A stretch of DNA of 64,000 nt from a virus. Its lineage: Duplodnaviria; Caudoviricetes. Of the stretch, positions 56,250-63,440 are shown one piece after another. The DNA lies in the IMG/VR virus record IMGVR_UViG_3300043468_001158; one strand, 5' to 3'. Both the position numbers and the translations under genes were made by a program. The notes under the pieces are model-generated. The model was not told where the DNA came from, did not search any database, and was given only the letters and a program-made list of their open reading frames with translations. Within the stretch, counting starts at the first letter, position 1. Every line of letters starts with the position of its first letter.

Positions 56250-56432
56250 ATGACTGCTACGTCAGAGCAATTAGGTATCGATGATGCTCAACGTCATCGA
56301 TATCAACTTCTGATAAAAGCAGAAATACTAACAGAGAATGGTGAATATCATCCAAGATGGTTTTCACAAGAAACAATAGAACGAGATAAACAACATAGAA
56401 ATCAAACTCAGAAGAGGAATAACGAAAGATGA
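56250..56432 (+). CDS. Hypothetical protein (60 aa)
   Basis: ATGA overlap with the next gene. Confidence 0.55.
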   Translation: MTATSEQLGIDDAQRHRYQLLIKAEILTENGEYHPRWFSQETIERDKQHRNQTQKRNNER

Positions 56433-56875
56433 CTTCATTACTACAACAAATCAAAGACCGTTCGCTTGAAGCTCGCAAGGCTAAAGCGCCTGAAGCAGTG
56501 TATCTAACAACTTTGTTAGGCGAAGCTTCTCGTCCTGGTAAAGACGATGGCAGTCGTGAAAGTACTGACGAAGAAGTACTGAAAGTTTTGACTAAGTTCA
56601 AGACCGGTGCTCTTGAAATGCTTGATGTCTTCGAACGAGTTGAAGATGTTAATAAGATTATCGTGACCGAACGCGAACTTGCAATCTTGGACAGTTATCT
56701 GCCAAAGCAAATGTCAAACATCGAGCTTGAAAACATCATTGCCAAGTTTGTCGTTGATGCAGATAAGACACCATCAATTGGTATGATTATGGCATACTTG
56801 AAGTCTAACTATGCTGGTCAGTATGATGGTAAAGCTGCTTCAGTATTTGCTAAGTCTGCGATTGAGGAACTGTAG
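56429..56875 (+). CDS. GatB/YqeY-domain protein
   Basis: LEARKAK...LTTLLGE...DEEV...ELAILDSYLPKQMS...GMIMAYLK...YDGK. Confidence 0.85.
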   Translation: MTSLLQQIKDRSLEARKAKAPEAVYLTTLLGEASRPGKDDGSRESTDEEVLKVLTKFKTGALEMLDVFERVEDVNKIIVTERELAILDSYLPKQMSNIELENIIAKFVVDADKTPSIGMIMAYLKSNYAGQYDGKAASVFAKSAIEEL

Positions 56876-56887
56876 GAAATGTAGGAA

Positions 56888-57088
56888 ATGAAAATCAATC
56901 TCCAATTATTTCTTATCGTACTTCTGTTGTTTAGCATTATGCCATTGCTAAAATACTTAGACATTTCTAGACAAACCTCAGAAAATGTGATACAATGCAT
57001 TGGAGATTACAGCTTTTCGCAAGACTTTCTGGATTTTTGGCGACCATATGAAGACGAAAATCCAGAACATATCAGATGTAATGACTGA
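56888..57088 (+). CDS. Small membrane-anchored protein (66 aa)
   Basis: N-terminal TM LFLIVLLLFSIMPLL; stop codon overlaps the 5-prime end of the tRNA-like RNA. Confidence 0.55.
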   Translation: MKINLQLFLIVLLLFSIMPLLKYLDISRQTSENVIQCIGDYSFSQDFLDFWRPYEDENPEHIRCND

Positions 57089-57207
57089 ATAGCTTAATCG
57101 GCAGAGCATCTCAGCTAGGGCAGGGGGTTAGGTTCGATTCCTAACAGATAAGTGGCGCCTGTAAGTCCGCATGAGGTAGGTAGTGGGTTCGAACCCCCTT
57201 TCAGTCA
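57083..57207 (+). ncRNA. tRNA-like RNA whose anticodon loop is replaced by a 58-nt domain with a second T-arm
   Basis: GACTGAA/TTCAGTC acceptor stem; D-arm GCTT-AATCGGCA-GAGC; stem TCTCA/TGAGG; T-loop TTCGAAC; insert contains GTTAGG-TTCGATT-CCTAAC; no encoded CCA. Confidence 0.8.
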
Positions 57208-59276: not shown

Positions 59277-59453
59277 ATGAAAGCTCTACTTATCTTAATC
59301 ACAATCACGATGGTTCTTACTGCGTGTGGAACAACAAGTGTCTATCAAGATGATGGTTCAAAACAACCGTCTGGCTATCATCGCAATGAATACAGTCATC
59401 GTCATGGCAATGCACCACCTGTTCCTGACCAAAACCAACTTCCGCAAAAATAA
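59277..59453 (+). CDS. Small lipoprotein (58 aa); absent from the ORF track
   Basis: MKALLILITITMVLTAC lipobox. Confidence 0.65.
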   Translation: MKALLILITITMVLTACGTTSVYQDDGSKQPSGYHRNEYSHRHGNAPPVPDQNQLPQK

Positions 59454-59456
59454 CCG

Positions 59457-59485
59457 TTTACTTTAGTCCTTCTGCTTGTTATAAT
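59457..59485 (+). promoter_or_regulatory. Early promoter TTTACT-N17-TATAAT
   Basis: AACCG before and AGAC after; followed by a 10-bp hairpin. Confidence 0.75.
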
Positions 59486-59520
59486 AGACTCATAATCTTA
59501 AAACCTTATGAGTCTTTTAT

Positions 59521-59814
59521 ATGGCAGTTCAAATTCGTGGTACTCAACAACAGATAGTTTCTATCAATGTGTCTGAATCAGACCTGATTAGCGCAGTTCT
59601 TTCTTTAGTTGAAGACATCTATGTTCCACTTGAGTCCATTGAGGCTATCAATCCCGCTGGTTATATTGTTCAGACTGAATATGATATGCATAATCATGAC
59701 CCACGAAGTGTAGTCACTGATGTACTTGCAACTGAACAAGACAGGTATTATGTAGACTTTCGCGAAAAACTTCTTACACTAAGATATCATCTACGTAAGA
59801 AATCTGGTATATAA
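59521..59814 (+). CDS. Hypothetical protein (97 aa)
   Basis: First ORF after the promoter. Confidence 0.65.
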   Translation: MAVQIRGTQQQIVSINVSESDLISAVLSLVEDIYVPLESIEAINPAGYIVQTEYDMHNHDPRSVVTDVLATEQDRYYVDFREKLLTLRYHLRKKSGI

Positions 59815-59863
59815 TACAACTTTATCGTAATACTTATAAACATATCACAAGAGGTAAATCAAA

Positions 59864-60628
59864 ATGACAAAACTCCACGAAATCCTAGCTGTTGAAAAAA
59901 CTCGTAACACTGCAGTTGCAAAATTACTGGATGACACTAGCAACAAATTCCGTAAAGACCAGTTTTTTGCAGGTCATATCAAAACATTGAAAATGTTGGT
60001 TGATTCTCCGGAAAATGCTGCAATTGAAGAAGCTGCTCGTGACGAAAAAGCTTTGCCAACTACAGTCCCTGAAACTCTTGAATATGTGTTTGACTTCTGG
60101 GCAAAAGCCGAAGACATCACTTTTGCAAAAAATCGTACTAACCAAATTGCCAATGCTGACCTGTTGTTCCGTGGACAAGTATTAGTACCTAATGTACCGG
60201 TTGATGAATTGCTTGGTCTTGAAACTCGTCTGCAAACATTGCGTAATGTGATGGATACGGTTCCAACTTTGGATGCGTCTAAAGAATGGAAAGTAACTGA
60301 CAATGGTCGTAAAGGCGAGTTCGTAACGACAGGTGAAGAAGTCACCAGCAAAACTGAAAAGACAATGACTGCTGTGGTCTTGTATGAAGCAACTGACAAA
60401 CATCCAGCTCAAATTGAAAAAGTGACTGCCGATAAAGTTGTTGGAACATTCAAACGTCGTTTGATTTCTGGTGCTGCTACTTCCAAGCAAAAAGCAGATG
60501 CAATTGCAATTCTTGATGAATTGTTGGTTGAAACCAAACAAGCAAGACAGCGTGCAAACTCTGTTGAAGTCATCAACGAAAAAATCGGTAACACGATTGC
60601 AAACTTGATTTTGGATGTCTTCAAATAA
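59864..60628 (+). CDS. Conserved 254-aa helical protein (recalled as DUF7873-like), upstream of the tRNA-mimic RNA
   Basis: GAGGT RBS; MTKLHEILAVEK, NVPVDELLGLETRL, EATDKHPAQIEKV, FKRRLISGA and ARQRANSVEV match a family I recall from phages and actinobacteria (unverified). Confidence 0.65.
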   Translation: MTKLHEILAVEKTRNTAVAKLLDDTSNKFRKDQFFAGHIKTLKMLVDSPENAAIEEAARDEKALPTTVPETLEYVFDFWAKAEDITFAKNRTNQIANADLLFRGQVLVPNVPVDELLGLETRLQTLRNVMDTVPTLDASKEWKVTDNGRKGEFVTTGEEVTSKTEKTMTAVVLYEATDKHPAQIEKVTADKVVGTFKRRLISGAATSKQKADAIAILDELLVETKQARQRANSVEVINEKIGNTIANLILDVFK

Positions 60629-60632
60629 ACCG

Positions 60633-60661
60633 TTTACATTGACTAAAAAGCATGATAGAAT
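60633..60661 (+). promoter_or_regulatory. Early promoter TTTACA-N17-TAGAAT
   Basis: AACCG-prefixed; positioned to transcribe the leader hairpin, the 119-aa ORF and the downstream RNA. Confidence 0.75.
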
Positions 60662-60671
60662 AGATACAAAT

Positions 60672-60742
60672 AAAAGTTCAACCGGAGCTAATGGATTATC
60701 CCGTTAAGATACAAACCCATAAGCGTTTTTAGTTGTACTTTT
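60672..60742 (+). ncRNA. Structured leader hairpin sharing motifs with the 61690-61758 insertion
   Basis: AAAAGTTCAAC/GTTGTACTTTT outer stem; GCTAATGG/CCATAAGC inner stem; exact 13-mer AGCGTTTTTAGTT also at 61699-61711. Confidence 0.6.
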
Positions 60743-60776
60743 ACCAAATTGTGAAATAAAGTGGAGAGAAAATTCG

Positions 60777-61136
60777 ATGTACAGACCTGAAGGTATAGGC
60801 CAAGTTATTTGGAAGTTTGCAAAATCTTCTAAAGAAGTTACAATGGAAAATCTAAAAGAAGTCATATCAGAATATTCTGGTATTGTACCTGATATGCTTT
60901 CTGATTATTCTGTGTATGAAGTAGTATTTGAAACTGTTGGTCAAGCAATAGAAGCTGGAGTAATCAGAGCTCATATGTTTAGGGATTTTGCAAATGCAAT
61001 TGTTCCATCTCCATTTTTTAGAAATTATCAAGCAATAGAAGTTCTAACTGAATTGACTATGATTCAGTGTATGATAAATATGATTAGATATGTCCAGGTC
61101 ATAGACGGTGATACCATTTTGATTGACCTGGATTAG
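60777..61136 (+). CDS. Hypothetical protein (119 aa) between the RNA elements
   Basis: GGAG RBS; open frame. Confidence 0.65.
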   Translation: MYRPEGIGQVIWKFAKSSKEVTMENLKEVISEYSGIVPDMLSDYSVYEVVFETVGQAIEAGVIRAHMFRDFANAIVPSPFFRNYQAIEVLTELTMIQCMINMIRYVQVIDGDTILIDLD

Positions 61137-61180
61137 AAAACAAACGAGCCAAACTTATCTTTATTATTGTAGTAAATCGT

Positions 61181-61304
61181 TTTAGAATTGATGTGGTGGT
61201 TCGAGTCCATCCTTCCCCACAAAGTGTTTTATCAACATAGAATATTTTGTGGGGAAGTAGAAGAACAGGCATATTCTGCTCTTATGTGAGTATTCAGTTC
61301 TATT
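61181..61304 (+). ncRNA. Circularly permuted tRNA-like module 1
   Basis: T-arm GGTGG-TTCGAGT-CCATC (61195-61211); CTTCCCC (61212-61218) pairs with GGGGAAG (61251-61257) across a capping hairpin; TAGAATTGA pairs with TCAGTTCTA. Confidence 0.7.
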
Positions 61305-61393
61305 ACAAAGTTATCTTCTTCGTATCGCTCAGCATACGTGACTAGGAAGGCATCTTAACAATTGCAAATAGGCACAATCTTATCATTCTATTA

Positions 61394-61502
61394 TGATAAA
61401 CCGAAAGTCGTGGGTTCGAATCCCATTTCCACCTCCACTTGGTATTGAATAGCTCGTCAGTATCAAGTGGGGTGGAGTAACTCAGTGGTTAGAGTGTCGG
61501 TC
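61394..61502 (+). ncRNA. Circularly permuted tRNA-like module 2 (rejoined halves read as a tRNA with GAU anticodon)
   Basis: 3-prime half TGATAA-ACCGA-AAGTC-GTGGG-TTCGAAT-CCCAT-TTCCACC-T-CCA precedes 5-prime half GGTGGAG-TA-ACTC-AGTGGTTA-GAGT-G-TCGGT-C. Confidence 0.88.
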
Positions 61503-61657
61503 AAATATAACTCAAACTCATCGTCAAACATGTGGGTTATTTGCAAAAAGATGTAAGACAAAGGTTCTTGATGACTGGTGGTTAGACAGGTATGTTCTAA
61601 TCGCTAGTCATTCTATAAAAAAGTATTAGAATAAATAGTATTTTTCTATAGAATAAT

Positions 61658-61793
61658 GTGAATGATAGCTCAGTTGGTAGAGCAGCCGCCATCAAAATAG
61701 CGTTTTTAGTTTTTGTTCAATTCACGTTGAACCGTTGAAAATGATTATCCAAATCCAAGCAGCATGTCATAGGTTCGAATCCTATTCATTCAC
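61658..61793 (+). ncRNA. tRNA-like module 3 with a 69-nt insertion in the anticodon loop
   Basis: (G)TGAATGA/TCATTCA(C) acceptor stem; GCTC-AGTTGGTA-GAGC D-arm; GCCGC/GCAGC stem; ATAGG-TTCGAAT-CCTAT T-arm; 3-prime end TTCA rather than CCA; TAAATA at 61632-61637. Confidence 0.82.
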
Positions 61794-61807
61794 TTCAAAT
61801 TATACGT

Positions 61808-61893
61808 GGCATCGTGGGGGAATTAGGTATACCCAGCAGACTTAAAATCTGCCAGCTTCGGCTATCCCGGTTCAAGTCCGGGCGATGCTACCA
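61808..61893 (+). tRNA. tRNA-Leu(TAA)
   Basis: GGCATCG/CGATGCT acceptor stem, GCAGA-CTTAAAA-TCTGC anticodon arm, long variable arm, CCCGG-TTCAAGT-CCGGG T-arm, ACCA. Confidence 0.95.
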
Positions 61894-61917
61894 ATAAATG
61901 CGAATAAACTAATGAAT

Positions 61918-62397
61918 TTATTCAATACTAACAGCTGAAGAACCGGCTTTTTTCATGTTTTCTAACTCCATTTTTAATCGTTCTATTTCTAAAGCGTAAA
62001 GTTGTGTGCAATCAATTCTCGCAGGTTCTTCTCCAATAGGAATAACAATTCGAGCATAAACTCCAATGTCATTACCGGCGATATTATTAGAAGATTCTTG
62101 ATTAGAATAATAATTATTGATAACTTGTGGGTCTGAACTATTAGATGCATTAGTATTTTTTGTTCCGGTAATACCAAAATCTAATGTAGGGCCAATATGA
62201 GTTCCTTGATTACATGTTGTTCCATCACGTCCTCTAACAGAATCTCCACCAATTGAGTTTTGAGGAGTCATTGGCATCATTGGTGAGCCATAACCATTAT
62301 TTGAAACTATAAGTAATAGTATTATTGAGAAACTTTTGTGGTAACTATAGAGCATGTTCTTAACCTCATTGATTGAGAATCTTTTAGAACCGCACAA
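61918..62397 (-). CDS. Secreted protein with C-terminal coiled coil, third gene of the pilin-like cassette
   Basis: Signal-like IILLLIVSNNGYG (true start probably MLYSYHK); DSVRGRDGTTC...LDFGITG...IGVYARIVIPI...RIDCTQLYALEIERLKMEL. Confidence 0.65.
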   Translation of the reverse strand: MCGSKRFSINEVKNMLYSYHKSFSIILLLIVSNNGYGSPMMPMTPQNSIGGDSVRGRDGTTCNQGTHIGPTLDFGITGTKNTNASNSSDPQVINNYYSNQESSNNIAGNDIGVYARIVIPIGEEPARIDCTQLYALEIERLKMELENMKKAGSSAVSIE

Positions 62398-62687
62398 AGA
62401 TAATATTTTGAATTATCTTTTATGATAATATCAATTGGAATAATTCGTTCTTGCTCTTTACCTAAAACAAATTCAGAAATAATTTTGTCTTCATTTTTTT
62501 GTAAATCAATTACTTTTACAAATTCTATAGAAGCAGTTTCAAAGTGACCATAAATTTTAAATTGAATCGGAGTTTTAGTACCAATAACTCCGGTTGTAGT
62601 TATTTTGTTTGGAAAAACACTTACTGCAAATACTGATTGGATTGATATAAAAAAGGTAATAAATAAGTTTATTAGATGCTGTTTCAT
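62322..62687 (-). CDS. Small PapD-like/Ig-fold chaperone-like secreted protein
   Basis: Signal peptide then VSVFP; beta-strand pattern with FVLGKEQERII and a C-terminal Cys pair. Confidence 0.5.
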   Translation of the reverse strand: MKQHLINLFITFFISIQSVFAVSVFPNKITTTGVIGTKTPIQFKIYGHFETASIEFVKVIDLQKNEDKIISEFVLGKEQERIIPIDIIIKDNSKYYLCAVLKDSQSMRLRTCSIVTTKVSQ

Positions 62688-62786
62688 AATATGTCATTTA
62701 TAATTATAAATCCAGTAATAAGTTGAGAGAAGGACCTGGATTAAATCTTTTCGGGTTATAAATTCCCTATCCCCCAACTTATTATT

Positions 62787-63299
62787 TTACATTGTGCAAG
62801 ATACTGGTATTTTTAATTGATATGTTCCAGCAGGGAAAGCAGAACCATCTTGACGCGTAACATTAGCATTTACGGCAATGTTGTATGTTCCGCCATCAAA
62901 GAAGAATGTATTAGACGCAGCATCTGGTCCAAATTGACTTACAGCAACGCCAAATAAATCAGAACCATTACCATTTGCTGAAGTAGTTACAATCGCGTCA
63001 GATAAAACTCCATTAGGACCAATAATAATTGGCGCTCCTAATGGTAAAGAATATCCATTCACATTAGCACGTAAGCTTACTGAAGCTGGAGAACCACCTG
63101 AATTTTCAGAAGATAATTGAGTTTGGTCTGCTGAAGTAGTAATTGTTCCATCGACAAAAGTCATAAGATTACAAGATGGAGCTACAGTTCCATTAAATTT
63201 TAAGTCTCCTGATGTTGGTCCGACTGCTGCAGGTAAAATAGCTGCAGAAGCTGAAAAACTAATTAAAAGACTGAGTGGTAAAAGTAATATTCCTTTCAT
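62787..63299 (-). CDS. Fimbrial (pilin-like) subunit
   Basis: Signal peptide ending FSASA; LKFNGTVAPSC; C-terminal FPAGTYQLKIPVSC; TATAAATA on the minus strand at 63357-63364 and 63391-63398. Confidence 0.65.
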   Translation of the reverse strand: MKGILLLPLSLLISFSASAAILPAAVGPTSGDLKFNGTVAPSCNLMTFVDGTITTSADQTQLSSENSGGSPASVSLRANVNGYSLPLGAPIIIGPNGVLSDAIVTTSANGNGSDLFGVAVSQFGPDAASNTFFFDGGTYNIAVNANVTRQDGSAFPAGTYQLKIPVSCTM

Positions 63300-63440
63300 T
63301 TTTATTTCCTTTTAAGTTGTTGATAATAAACTCATCATAATAATCTCAGCAAATGCTATTTATATAAATTTGCATTAGGTCATTTCAGGTTATTTATATA
63401 AGTTGGAAGTGACCAGTCAAATTATAATTTGTATAAACTA

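What the first reader, a model, noticed from the sequence alone, without database searches (positions are those of the whole stretch)
59864..61136. Candidate protein partners of the tRNA-mimic RNA
Seen: a 254-aa helical protein and a 119-aa ORF directly precede or sit between the RNA elements on the same strand. Recall (unverified): the 254-aa motif set matches a family (DUF7873-like) that I associate with Ro60/TROVE and structured-RNA loci. Inference: protein plus tRNA-mimic array form one ribonucleoprotein system, perhaps working with a host or distal Ro60 or without one.
Basis: inference. Interest (0 to 1): 0.72.

Follow-up and report, generated by a model that had tools for sequence, protein, structure and literature searches.

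The report
DUF7873 dimer beside tRNA-mimic RNA
A lake-water giant phage carries a protein of unknown function (DUF7873) that, in phages and bacteria alike, is almost always followed by a structured RNA made of two back-to-front tRNA look-alikes, so the two probably work as one undescribed protein-RNA unit; the small 119-aa gene lying between them here is real but a local insertion.

Summary
Both ORFs are real. The 254-aa ORF (59864-60628) is a full-length DUF7873 (PF25283, E 1.4e-66). The 119-aa ORF (60777-61136) is a fast-evolving, lineage-restricted gene (two homologues at 54-57% identity, dN/dS 0.29).

In 158 homologue loci, 143 carry a T-loop motif within 800 nt downstream on the same strand, against 10 on the opposite strand. 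Strict permuted tRNA-like modules are about 300 times denser there than elsewhere. In a sample of 300 Actinomycetes genomes picked by the Pfam model alone, 19 of 19 intact genes have them.

No protein neighbour is conserved. TROVE/Ro60 lies within 10 kb in 2 of 166 loci and RtcB in 1 of 167. TROVE co-occurs at genome level (odds ratio about 11) but was not found in 21 of 50 bacterial genomes or in three complete phage genomes.

DUF7873 gives a confident fold (pLDDT 94.5) with no clear solved relative. It is predicted to form an intertwined homodimer (ipSAE 0.75, best control 0.00). Direct RNA binding is inferred, not shown.

ORF119 is an insertion that splits a normally tight gene-RNA junction. 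This scan has met the DUF7873-RNA pair before on other DNA; I found no paper naming DUF7873.

The parts
59457..59485 (+). Promoter-like site (TTTACT, 17 nt, TATAAT, TG-extended) ahead of the 97-aa ORF and DUF7873
   Evidence: Consensus scan, 10 of 12 matches. The preceding block CCGTTTAC is shared with the 60633 site. Function not tested.
59521..59814 (+). 97-aa ORF of unknown function, directly upstream and co-oriented with DUF7873
   Evidence: ORF list. No Pfam, PHROG, NCBIfam or PADLOC match. It is not a conserved neighbour of DUF7873 in other loci.
59864..60628 (+). DUF7873 gene (254 aa); predicted intertwined homodimer of a fold with no clear solved relative
   Evidence: PF25283 E 1.4e-66. 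1950 clusters at 50% identity match it. AF2 pLDDT 94.5. No clear PDB or BFVD match. Homodimer ipSAE 0.75 against a best control of 0.00.
60633..60661 (+). Internal promoter-like site (TTTACA, 17 nt, TAGAAT, TG-extended) just after the DUF7873 stop codon
   Evidence: Consensus scan, 10 of 12 matches. The site is conserved in the diverged relative L176.
60672..60742 (+). Conserved leader block ahead of ORF119 (GCTAATGGATTATC ... CCATAAGCGTTTTTAGTT)
   Evidence: The whole 60626-60780 stretch is 84% identical to L176, although synonymous sites there are saturated. Its predicted fold is not better than shuffles (z -0.8).
60777..61136 (+). ORF119: a lineage-restricted small protein inserted between DUF7873 and its RNA
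   Evidence: Homologues of 122 aa at 54-57% identity. Same position in L176. dN/dS 0.29. No family match. AF2 pLDDT 64.6, helical with a C-terminal hairpin.
61195..61276 (+). Permuted tRNA-like module A: T-arm 61195-61211, acceptor strands 61212-61218 and 61251-61257 closed by a cap, then a class-II-like D-arm
   Evidence: Sequence and module detector. MFE fold of 61137-61570 has z -7.0. Weak tmRNA-type Rfam hits at 61195-61259.
61394..61500 (+). Permuted tRNA-like module B: T-arm 61410-61426, acceptor 61427-61433, discriminator T, encoded CCA 61435-61437, cap 61438-61470, acceptor 61471-61477, D-arm 61480-61495, closing stem 61394-61398 with 61496-61500
   Evidence: Sub-threshold YrlA hit of 25 bits against a gathering score of 69. 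An RNA-library contig joins 61437 directly to 61471.
61659..61793 (+). tRNA-like gene in normal arm order with a 68-nt insert in the anticodon loop
   Evidence: Rfam tRNA model, 45.3 bits. ARAGORN does not call it.
61808..61893 (+). tRNA-Leu(UAA)
   Evidence: ARAGORN and Rfam.
61933..61948 (+). The only terminator-like hairpin in 59300-62000; likely end of the co-directional unit
   Evidence: Consensus scan.

Best explanation
The 254-aa protein is a DUF7873 family member. It most likely forms an intertwined homodimer. Together with the two-headed tRNA-mimic RNA encoded downstream, it forms a self-contained, co-inherited protein-RNA unit.

Shown here:
- The gene and the RNA travel together in phages and in many bacterial lineages, with no other conserved partner gene.
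- In this phage the unit lies in a tRNA island. It runs from promoter 59457 through DUF7873, an internal promoter at 60633, ORF119, RNA modules A and B, a third tRNA-like gene and tRNA-Leu, to the terminator at 61933.

Inferred:
- The dimer binds the RNA, perhaps one protomer per tRNA-like head. The exposed, conserved beta-hairpin tip (T177, H180-P-A-Q183) and conserved basic residues could take part.
- The particle acts on a tRNA-directed process such as tRNA surveillance, repair or counter-defence. It would be analogous to Ro60 with YrlA or SmpB with tmRNA, but would not need Ro60.

ORF119 is a real but lineage-specific gene that was inserted, with its own promoter, into the normally tight gene-RNA junction. 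It is not a core component.
For: Pairing of gene and RNA:
- A T-loop motif lies within 800 nt downstream on the same strand in 143 of 158 loci. The reverse complement has it in 10 of 158 and the upstream side in 40 of 158 (Fisher p 3e-58).
- Strict permuted modules (perfect T-stem, perfect 7-bp closed acceptor, D-arm) occur in 117 of 158 loci. Their density is 0.94 per kb downstream against 0.003 per kb elsewhere on both strands.
- The result holds for bacterial loci (57 of 74) and viral loci (59 of 83).
- The median distance from the stop codon to the first T-loop is 106 nt.
- In 300 Actinomycetes genomes sampled by the Pfam model alone, 19 of 19 intact genes have modules downstream. The one degraded fragment has none.
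- The module order is conserved: a class-II-like D-arm first, then a class-I-like one, in 46 loci. CCA follows the discriminator in 99 of 215 modules.

No other partner gene:
- Clustering of neighbouring ORFs finds no family shared beyond genus-level synteny.
- The neighbours that recur within single bacterial genera are unrelated: a sensor, methyltransferases, an ATP-grasp protein, a transporter.

The RNA looks trans-acting rather than a passive tail of the mRNA:
- In this lineage a promoter and ORF119 separate gene and RNA, yet the RNA stays 80-85% identical to L176 while dS is 0.7-1.3.
- In one RNA library a 178-nt contig (61259-61436) has depth 379, against 27 for the flanking contig.
- An RNA-library contig joins CCA (61437) to the first acceptor base (61471), dropping the 33-nt cap.

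The protein:
- The AF2 model has pLDDT 94.5.
- The homodimer scores ipSAE 0.75 against a best control of 0.00. In the tool's calibration, 20 of 30 proteins solved as pairs of one chain reached the mark, and 1 of 23 solved as single chains did. The runs agree in at least 98% of contacts, and the partner's pLDDT is 91. My own alignment was used, so these counts hold only roughly.
- Many near-invariant residues (F29, F35, G37, V68, N93, P112, P134, S202, G203) lie in the predicted interface. The conserved hairpin tip does not.
Against: - No binding datum exists. The tools cannot model protein-RNA contacts.
- The family is slightly acidic: median pI 6.2, median net charge -2. That is unusual for a dedicated RNA binder.
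- No known RNA-binding fold or motif was found.
- Adjacency on one strand without a terminator also fits a cis-acting RNA element.
- The RNA-library data are contigs. They cannot show strand, ends or expression level with certainty, and such libraries can contain DNA.
- My loci were mostly the best hits to a 12-sequence alignment, at 28-74% identity to the query. The most distant of the 1950 family clusters were not sampled.
Confidence: 0.55

Rival explanations
1. The tRNA-like modules are a cis-acting 3' element of the DUF7873 transcript. tRNA-processing enzymes would cut there to set the 3' end, or the element would control stability or translation. The protein's own function would then have nothing to do with binding that RNA.
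For: - The RNA is on the same strand, a median of 106 nt after the stop codon.
- No terminator lies between gene and RNA in the window.
- RNA-library contigs run from the gene into the modules.
- The protein is not basic.
Against: - Two elaborate modules in a conserved class-II then class-I order, often with an encoded CCA, are more than an end-processing signal needs.
- In 9 of 147 loci, the window included, the first T-loop lies more than 400 nt from the gene. In the window a separate promoter and ORF119 sit between them, yet the RNA remains strongly conserved.
- In one library a 178-nt piece is about 14 times deeper than the flanking contig.
Confidence: 0.15
2. DUF7873 is an enzyme that acts on tRNAs or on the exposed CCA end of the mimic. 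It might modify, trim, join or transfer something from that end. The RNA would be its substrate, cofactor or decoy rather than a stable partner.
For: - Many conserved polar residues lie outside the predicted dimer interface: H5, E6, D84, K89, D99, E120, R127, K166, T177, H180, Q183, K210, D218, R228, N232.
- CCA is encoded in 99 of 215 modules, and the cap is dropped exactly after CCA in an RNA-library contig.
- In phages the gene sits in tRNA and RNA-repair islands. Arthrobacter phage Talia1610 has an annotated RNA ligase 7 kb downstream.
Against: - No catalytic family or motif was recognised by Pfam, NCBIfam, PADLOC, a PDB profile search or fold searches.
- In Actinomycetes the caps are short (4-9 nt) and mostly lack CCA, so an exposed end is not universal.
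Confidence: 0.15
3. The RNA is an ordinary Y RNA that works with Ro60/Rsr encoded elsewhere in the phage or the host. DUF7873 would be an accessory factor of that Ro60 system.
For: - The architecture is YrlA-like, with a weak YrlA hit of 25 bits.
- The two closest viral relatives carry TROVE on the same contig, 4 kb and 50 kb away. The Rhizobium phages carry it about 5 kb downstream.
- In the Actinomycetes sample, 9 of 19 genomes with DUF7873 have TROVE, against 21 of 281 without it (odds ratio 11, p 1.4e-5).
Against: - TROVE lies within 10 kb in only 2 of 166 loci.
- No TROVE was found in 21 of 50 bacterial genomes that carry DUF7873. None was found in the complete genomes of phiRSL1, FBKp24 and Vibrio phage K479.
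- Where TROVE is present it has its own adjacent YrlA-like RNAs with short caps.
- Rfam's YrlA gathering score is not reached.
Confidence: 0.1
4. The adjacency has no functional meaning. DUF7873 would merely hitch-hike in variable tRNA islands, next to decaying or rearranged tRNA genes.
For: - In phages the gene sits among many ordinary tRNA genes, all on the same strand.
- Homing endonucleases and insertions are common in these islands.
Against: - The pairing also holds in bacterial chromosomes that have no tRNA cluster there.
- The modules keep perfect stems, a fixed order and a fixed distance.
- The enrichment is about 300-fold.
Confidence: 0.03

Closest known systems
Ro60/Rsr with YrlA-type Y RNAs (Rfam RF02553; Chen et al. 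2014, PMC4201824)
   Same: - The RNA has the same back-to-front tRNA-like domain: T-arm, acceptor-like stem closed by a loop, D-arm, with the RNA ends where the anticodon arm would be.
- M. smegmatis YrlA also has a 7-bp acceptor stem, is cut by RNase P and receives CCA.
- The RNA is encoded next to its protein gene and occurs in both phages and bacteria.
   Different: - The neighbouring protein is DUF7873, not a TROVE ring protein.
- TROVE is rarely nearby and often not found at all.
- There are two tandem modules in a fixed order, and the phage forms carry long caps and an encoded CCA.
- Rfam's YrlA threshold is not reached.
- I did not establish whether the Ro60-binding GNCGAAN0-1G motif is present.
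SmpB with tmRNA, especially two-piece (permuted) tmRNA
   Same: - A small dedicated protein is paired with a tRNA-like RNA.
- In permuted tmRNA genes the CCA-ended acceptor piece comes first and an intervening segment is removed (established knowledge). Here the 33-nt cap after CCA is dropped in an RNA-library contig.
- Weak tmRNA-type Rfam hits fall on module A.
   Different: - No tag reading frame or pseudoknots were identified.
- A full D-arm is present.
- There are two heads.
- DUF7873 has no detected similarity to SmpB in sequence or fold.
- All Rfam tmRNA scores are far below threshold.
Phage tRNA and RNA-repair islands (tRNA genes, RNA ligases, Ro-like proteins; Iyer et al. 2021, PMC7824862)
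   Same: In cultured phages the gene lies inside tRNA clusters. In some it lies near a TROVE or RNA ligase gene.
   Different: - That survey does not describe this protein or RNA in the passages I searched.
- The unit also occurs in bacterial chromosomes away from such islands.

Membership tests
Pfam DUF7873 (PF25283) | Score above the curated gathering cut-off with end-to-end coverage of the model | tested here: met
   225.1 bits against a cut-off of 27. Residues 1-250 lie on profile positions 1-242 of 244. All 120 listed homologues carry PF25283.
Pfam DUF7873 (PF25283) | Family-conserved residues present (M1, F29, F35, G37, V68, N93, P112, P134, W142, T177, H180, A182, Q183, R228, N232) | tested here: met
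   All are present in the window protein in the 60-sequence alignment.
Ro60/Rsr-Y RNA system | A TROVE-domain protein encoded beside the RNA | tested here: not met
   None of the 18 window ORFs scanned against Pfam, including every ORF in 56.4-61.1 kb, is a TROVE protein. TROVE lies within 10 kb of DUF7873 in 2 of 166 loci. The rest of this phage genome could not be searched.
Ro60/Rsr-Y RNA system | The RNA reaches Rfam's YrlA (RF02553) gathering score | tested here: not met
   25 bits against 69 for 61402-61499. No YrlA hit at gathering threshold in 8 homologue loci.
Ro60/Rsr-Y RNA system | A tRNA-like domain with T-arm, closed acceptor-like stem and D-arm in that order | tested here: met
   Modules A and B in the window, and 117 of 158 homologue loci under a strict detector.
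Ro60/Rsr-Y RNA system | A Ro60-binding helix with the GNCGAAN0-1G motif (Chen et al. 2014) | not tested
   I only looked by eye at a few loci and ran no systematic scan.
Ro60/Rsr-Y RNA system | Physical binding of the RNA by Ro60 | not testable with these tools
   This needs immunoprecipitation or a gel shift.
SmpB-tmRNA | The RNA reaches an Rfam tmRNA gathering score and carries a tag reading frame | tested here: not met
   beta_tmRNA 23.2 bits against 84; tmRNA_permuted 19 against 47. ARAGORN reports no tmRNA.
SmpB-tmRNA | The partner protein is an SmpB homologue | tested here: not met
   Pfam assigns only DUF7873. SmpB is not among the rows listed by the fold searches, which by itself is inconclusive.
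Known anti-phage defence or phage protein families (PADLOC, PHROGs) | A match to any model in the library | tested here: not met
   No PADLOC or PHROG family matches either protein.

The most novel reading that the evidence does not exclude
DUF7873 dimers and the two-headed RNA form a Ro60-independent particle. tRNA-processing enzymes open its tRNA-like heads to expose a CCA end. The particle then presents these anticodon-less tRNA mimics to tRNA-directed enzymes or toxins. In phages this would counter host immunity aimed at tRNA. In bacteria it would be a tRNA-end surveillance device. The result would be a third class of tRNA-mimic particle, beside Ro60-YrlA and SmpB-tmRNA, built on a protein fold with no solved relative.
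Probability: 0.18. Interest if true: 0.85.

Novelty: new variant of a known kind. Interest (0 to 1): 0.68.

Why it matters
The tRNA-like domain of bacterial Y RNAs has had no assigned partner or function since 2014.

This work points to a widespread sister system. It has about 1950 protein clusters at 50% identity, occurs in about 6% of sampled Actinomycetes, and is carried by many large phages. In it, the same kind of tRNA mimic is tied to a different, uncharacterised protein rather than to Ro60.

That makes the question directly testable, because cultured systems carry the unit:
- Ralstonia phage phiRSL1 (ORF270).
- Klebsiella phage FBKp24 (gp365).
- Gordonia, Arthrobacter and Rhizobium phages.
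- Nocardia, Streptomyces and Glycomyces strains.

For annotation, the RNA is currently unmarked in GenBank records, or possibly called as an odd tRNA.

Tried and rejected
Protein family and fold searches:
- PHROGs, NCBIfam and PADLOC gave nothing for either protein.
- A PDB profile search gave no hit at E up to 10.
- Foldseek against PDB and BFVD gave nothing at E 0.001 or better.
- The best VIA-align match was 3kdq, a protein of unknown function (Z 10.1, rmsd 7.5 A over 147 residues). All other rows were below Z 8. For a helical protein this is not interpretable.
- The atlas search returned only the DUF7873 cluster itself, plus short phage proteins at TM 0.44-0.46 by the query (0.52-0.63 by the match).

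Neighbour analysis:
- Clustering of neighbouring ORFs found no conserved protein partner.
- The recurrent neighbours within single bacterial genera are unrelated to each other.
- TROVE and RtcB are not adjacent.

ORF119:
- The AF2 model is of low confidence (pLDDT 64.6), so I ran no fold search on it.
- The atlas's own model resembles winged-helix regulators only at TM about 0.5. This is a lead, not a finding.
- I considered that ORF119 binds the conserved leader motif. I dropped the idea because L005 has the motif and no detectable ORF119 homologue.
- The predicted fold of the leader is no better than shuffles (z -0.8).

RNA motifs:
- Enriched hexamers in the downstream RNA (CAGACTC in bacteria, TTATCG and CGTTAT in phages) are unexplained leads.

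Technical failures:
- The first all-against-all BLAST timed out, and a background job was lost.
- The 60-sequence alignment was too diverse for locus scans.
- No whole genome is held for the window.

Literature:
- Burroughs and Aravind 2016 and Sim et al. 2020 are not held.
- An earlier check names the former as the nearest idea in print. I could not verify that.

RNA-library data:
- Stretches of the window without RNA-library cover in some runs are not interpretable.
Full report
**What is there**

The window is part of a large tailed phage. It encodes a baseplate wedge, portal, major head protein, SbcCD and homing endonucleases. The phage is abundant in freshwater samples.

The finding lies in a co-directional island of tRNAs and small genes. 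ORF 59864-60628 encodes 254 aa with a good ribosome-binding site.

ORF 60777-61136 encodes 119 aa and matches no family. It nevertheless has two full-length homologues at 54-57% identity. One of them (L176) lies in the same place, between a DUF7873 C-terminus and the same RNA modules. dN/dS is 0.29. Both ORFs are real genes.

Promoter-like sites lie at 59457-59485 and 60633-60661. The only terminator-like hairpin is at 61933-61948, after tRNA-Leu.

**The RNA**

Downstream lie two back-to-front tRNA-like modules.
- Module A has its T-arm at 61195-61211. Its acceptor strands, 61212-61218 and 61251-61257, are closed by a cap.
- Module B has its T-arm at 61410-61426, its acceptor strand at 61427-61433, discriminator T, and an encoded CCA at 61435-61437.
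- Module B then has a 33-nt cap, the second acceptor strand at 61471-61477 and a D-arm at 61480-61495.

After them come a tRNA-like gene with a 68-nt anticodon-loop insert (61659-61793) and tRNA-Leu. Module B gives a sub-threshold YrlA hit of 25 bits against a gathering score of 69. The region 61137-61570 folds far better than shuffles (z -7.0).

**Is the protein tied to such RNA elsewhere?**

Yes. The family is large: 1950 clusters at 50% identity match it.

In cultured phages the gene sits inside tRNA clusters and is followed by an unannotated gap of 300-500 nt. This holds for phiRSL1, the Klebsiella jumbo phage FBKp24, Rhizobium RHph phages, 78-kb Vibrio phages and Arthrobacter phage Talia1610.

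I collected 80 bacterial and about 90 viral loci.
- A T-loop motif lies within 800 nt downstream on the same strand in 143 of 158 loci.
- The opposite strand has it in 10 of 158 and the upstream side in 40 of 158 (p 3e-58).
- A strict detector requires a perfect T-stem, a perfect 7-bp closed acceptor and a D-arm. It finds modules in 117 of 158 loci.
- Their density is 0.94 per kb downstream against 0.003 per kb elsewhere.
- The median distance from the stop codon to the first T-loop is 106 nt.
- The usual design is two modules, the first with a class-II-like D-arm and discriminator A, the second with a class-I-like D-arm.
- CCA follows the discriminator in 99 of 215 modules.

An earlier check in this scan doubted that the pairing is the rule. 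I therefore drew a sample independent of my query: 300 Actinomycetes genomes searched with the Pfam model alone. Nineteen intact genes were found, and all 19 have modules 95-480 nt downstream. The one degraded fragment has none.

**Ro60/TROVE and RtcB**

The recalled neighbourhood link does not hold. TROVE lies within 10 kb in 2 of 166 loci and RtcB in 1 of 167. None of the 18 window ORFs scanned against Pfam is a TROVE protein. The rest of this phage genome could not be searched.

At genome level there is a non-obligate co-occurrence.
- 29 of 50 bacterial genomes with DUF7873 have TROVE.
- In the Actinomycetes sample, 9 of 19 genomes with DUF7873 have TROVE, against 21 of 281 without it.
- The two closest viral relatives carry TROVE 4 kb and 50 kb away.
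- The complete genomes of phiRSL1, FBKp24 and Vibrio phage K479 show none.

Where TROVE is present it has its own adjacent YrlA-like RNAs with short caps. The DUF7873 unit is therefore a separate system that often shares a genome with Ro60.

**The protein**

No other protein neighbour is conserved.

AlphaFold2 gives a confident model (pLDDT 94.5). It has four long helices, a beta-hairpin, and a long two-stranded beta-arm at residues 159-198. The near-invariant T177 and H180-P-A-Q183 fall between the arm's two strands.

No solved or predicted viral structure matches clearly. The family is slightly acidic, with median pI 6.2.

A two-copy prediction supports a symmetric, intertwined homodimer.
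- ipSAE is 0.75 against a best control of 0.00.
- The runs agree in at least 98% of contacts, and the partner's pLDDT is 91.
- In the tool's calibration, 20 of 30 proteins solved as pairs of one chain reached this mark, and 1 of 23 solved as single chains did.
- My own alignment was used, so these counts hold only roughly.

Many of the most conserved residues are in that interface. The hairpin tip and a set of conserved charged residues are not. A dimer facing an RNA with two heads is an attractive match, but it is an inference.

**Expression**

Contigs from freshwater metatranscriptome libraries of two studies cover the gene, ORF119 and the modules.
- One contig joins 61437 (the A of CCA) directly to 61471 (the first acceptor base), dropping the cap.
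- In another run a 178-nt contig ending at the CCA has depth 379, against 27 for the flanking contig.

These are contigs, and such libraries can hold DNA. This is therefore suggestive only.

**ORF119**

It occurs only in this phage lineage. The window is one of 9 of 147 loci in which more than 400 nt separate the gene from the first T-loop. It evolves faster than DUF7873: dN is 0.38 against 0.10 for the compared C-terminal stretch of DUF7873. Its model is of low confidence and mostly helical.

I read it as an insertion, with its own promoter, into the gene-RNA junction. It is not a core partner.

**Verdict**

The coupling of DUF7873 to a tRNA-mimic RNA is real and general. Direct binding is likely but unshown. 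ORF119 and Ro60 are not core parts.

The closest known systems are Ro60-YrlA and SmpB-tmRNA. This is not a member of either. I found no paper that names DUF7873. This scan has met the same pair on other DNA many times.

Noticed in passing
window 61680-61697: RNA-library contigs of two runs replace 16 nt inside the anticodon-loop insert of the third tRNA-like gene with 786 other letters. Variant contigs of the same phage carry a NUMOD3 homing-endonuclease gene just downstream of ORF119. This looks like a mobile insertion that is polymorphic in the population.
   Followed up: no
window 56429-56875: A 148-aa YqeY-domain protein (PF09424, E 1e-15; PHROG label 'tRNA amidotransferase') lies 3 kb upstream on the same strand in the same tRNA island. 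It belongs to a family thought to bind tRNA and may be another candidate partner of the tRNA mimics.
   Followed up: no
window 57083-57207: A 125-nt match to the tRNA model carries a 58-nt insert in the anticodon loop, and the insert itself contains a T-arm-like hairpin. Similar long tRNA matches of 97-126 nt recur in six other DUF7873 loci (L001, L002, L004-L007).
   Followed up: partly
L178-L196 compared with viral loci: DUF7873-linked modules in Actinomycetes mostly have short caps (4-9 nt) and often no CCA. 
   Followed up: partly
L002 7013-7097 (NC_061421.1 46041-46120): The 'tRNA-Sup-TTA' annotated in Klebsiella phage FBKp24 starts about 250 nt after the DUF7873 stop and overlaps the second permuted module. 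It may be a miscall of the mimic RNA. ARAGORN makes similar odd calls in L118 and L119 (tRNA-Asp atc).
   Followed up: no
600 nt downstream of DUF7873 in all loci: Short linear motifs outside the tRNA-like parts are enriched. AGACTC and CAGACT are enriched 17-23 fold in bacterial loci. CGTTAT and TTATCG are enriched 4-5 fold in viral loci. By eye, ACT-containing repeats flank the modules. These are possible protein-binding or processing sites.
   Followed up: no
window 60687-60734; L176 206-252; L005 19205-19253: A conserved pair of blocks about 50 nt across (GCTAATGGATTATC ... CCATAAGCGTTTTTAGTT) recurs in related phages. In L005 no detectable ORF119 homologue accompanies it.
   Followed up: partly
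window 61918-63300, minus strand: A cassette of secreted, pilin-like small proteins lies on the opposite strand right after the terminator. It is part of the phage, since the same contigs continue into a VanY peptidase gene.
   Followed up: no
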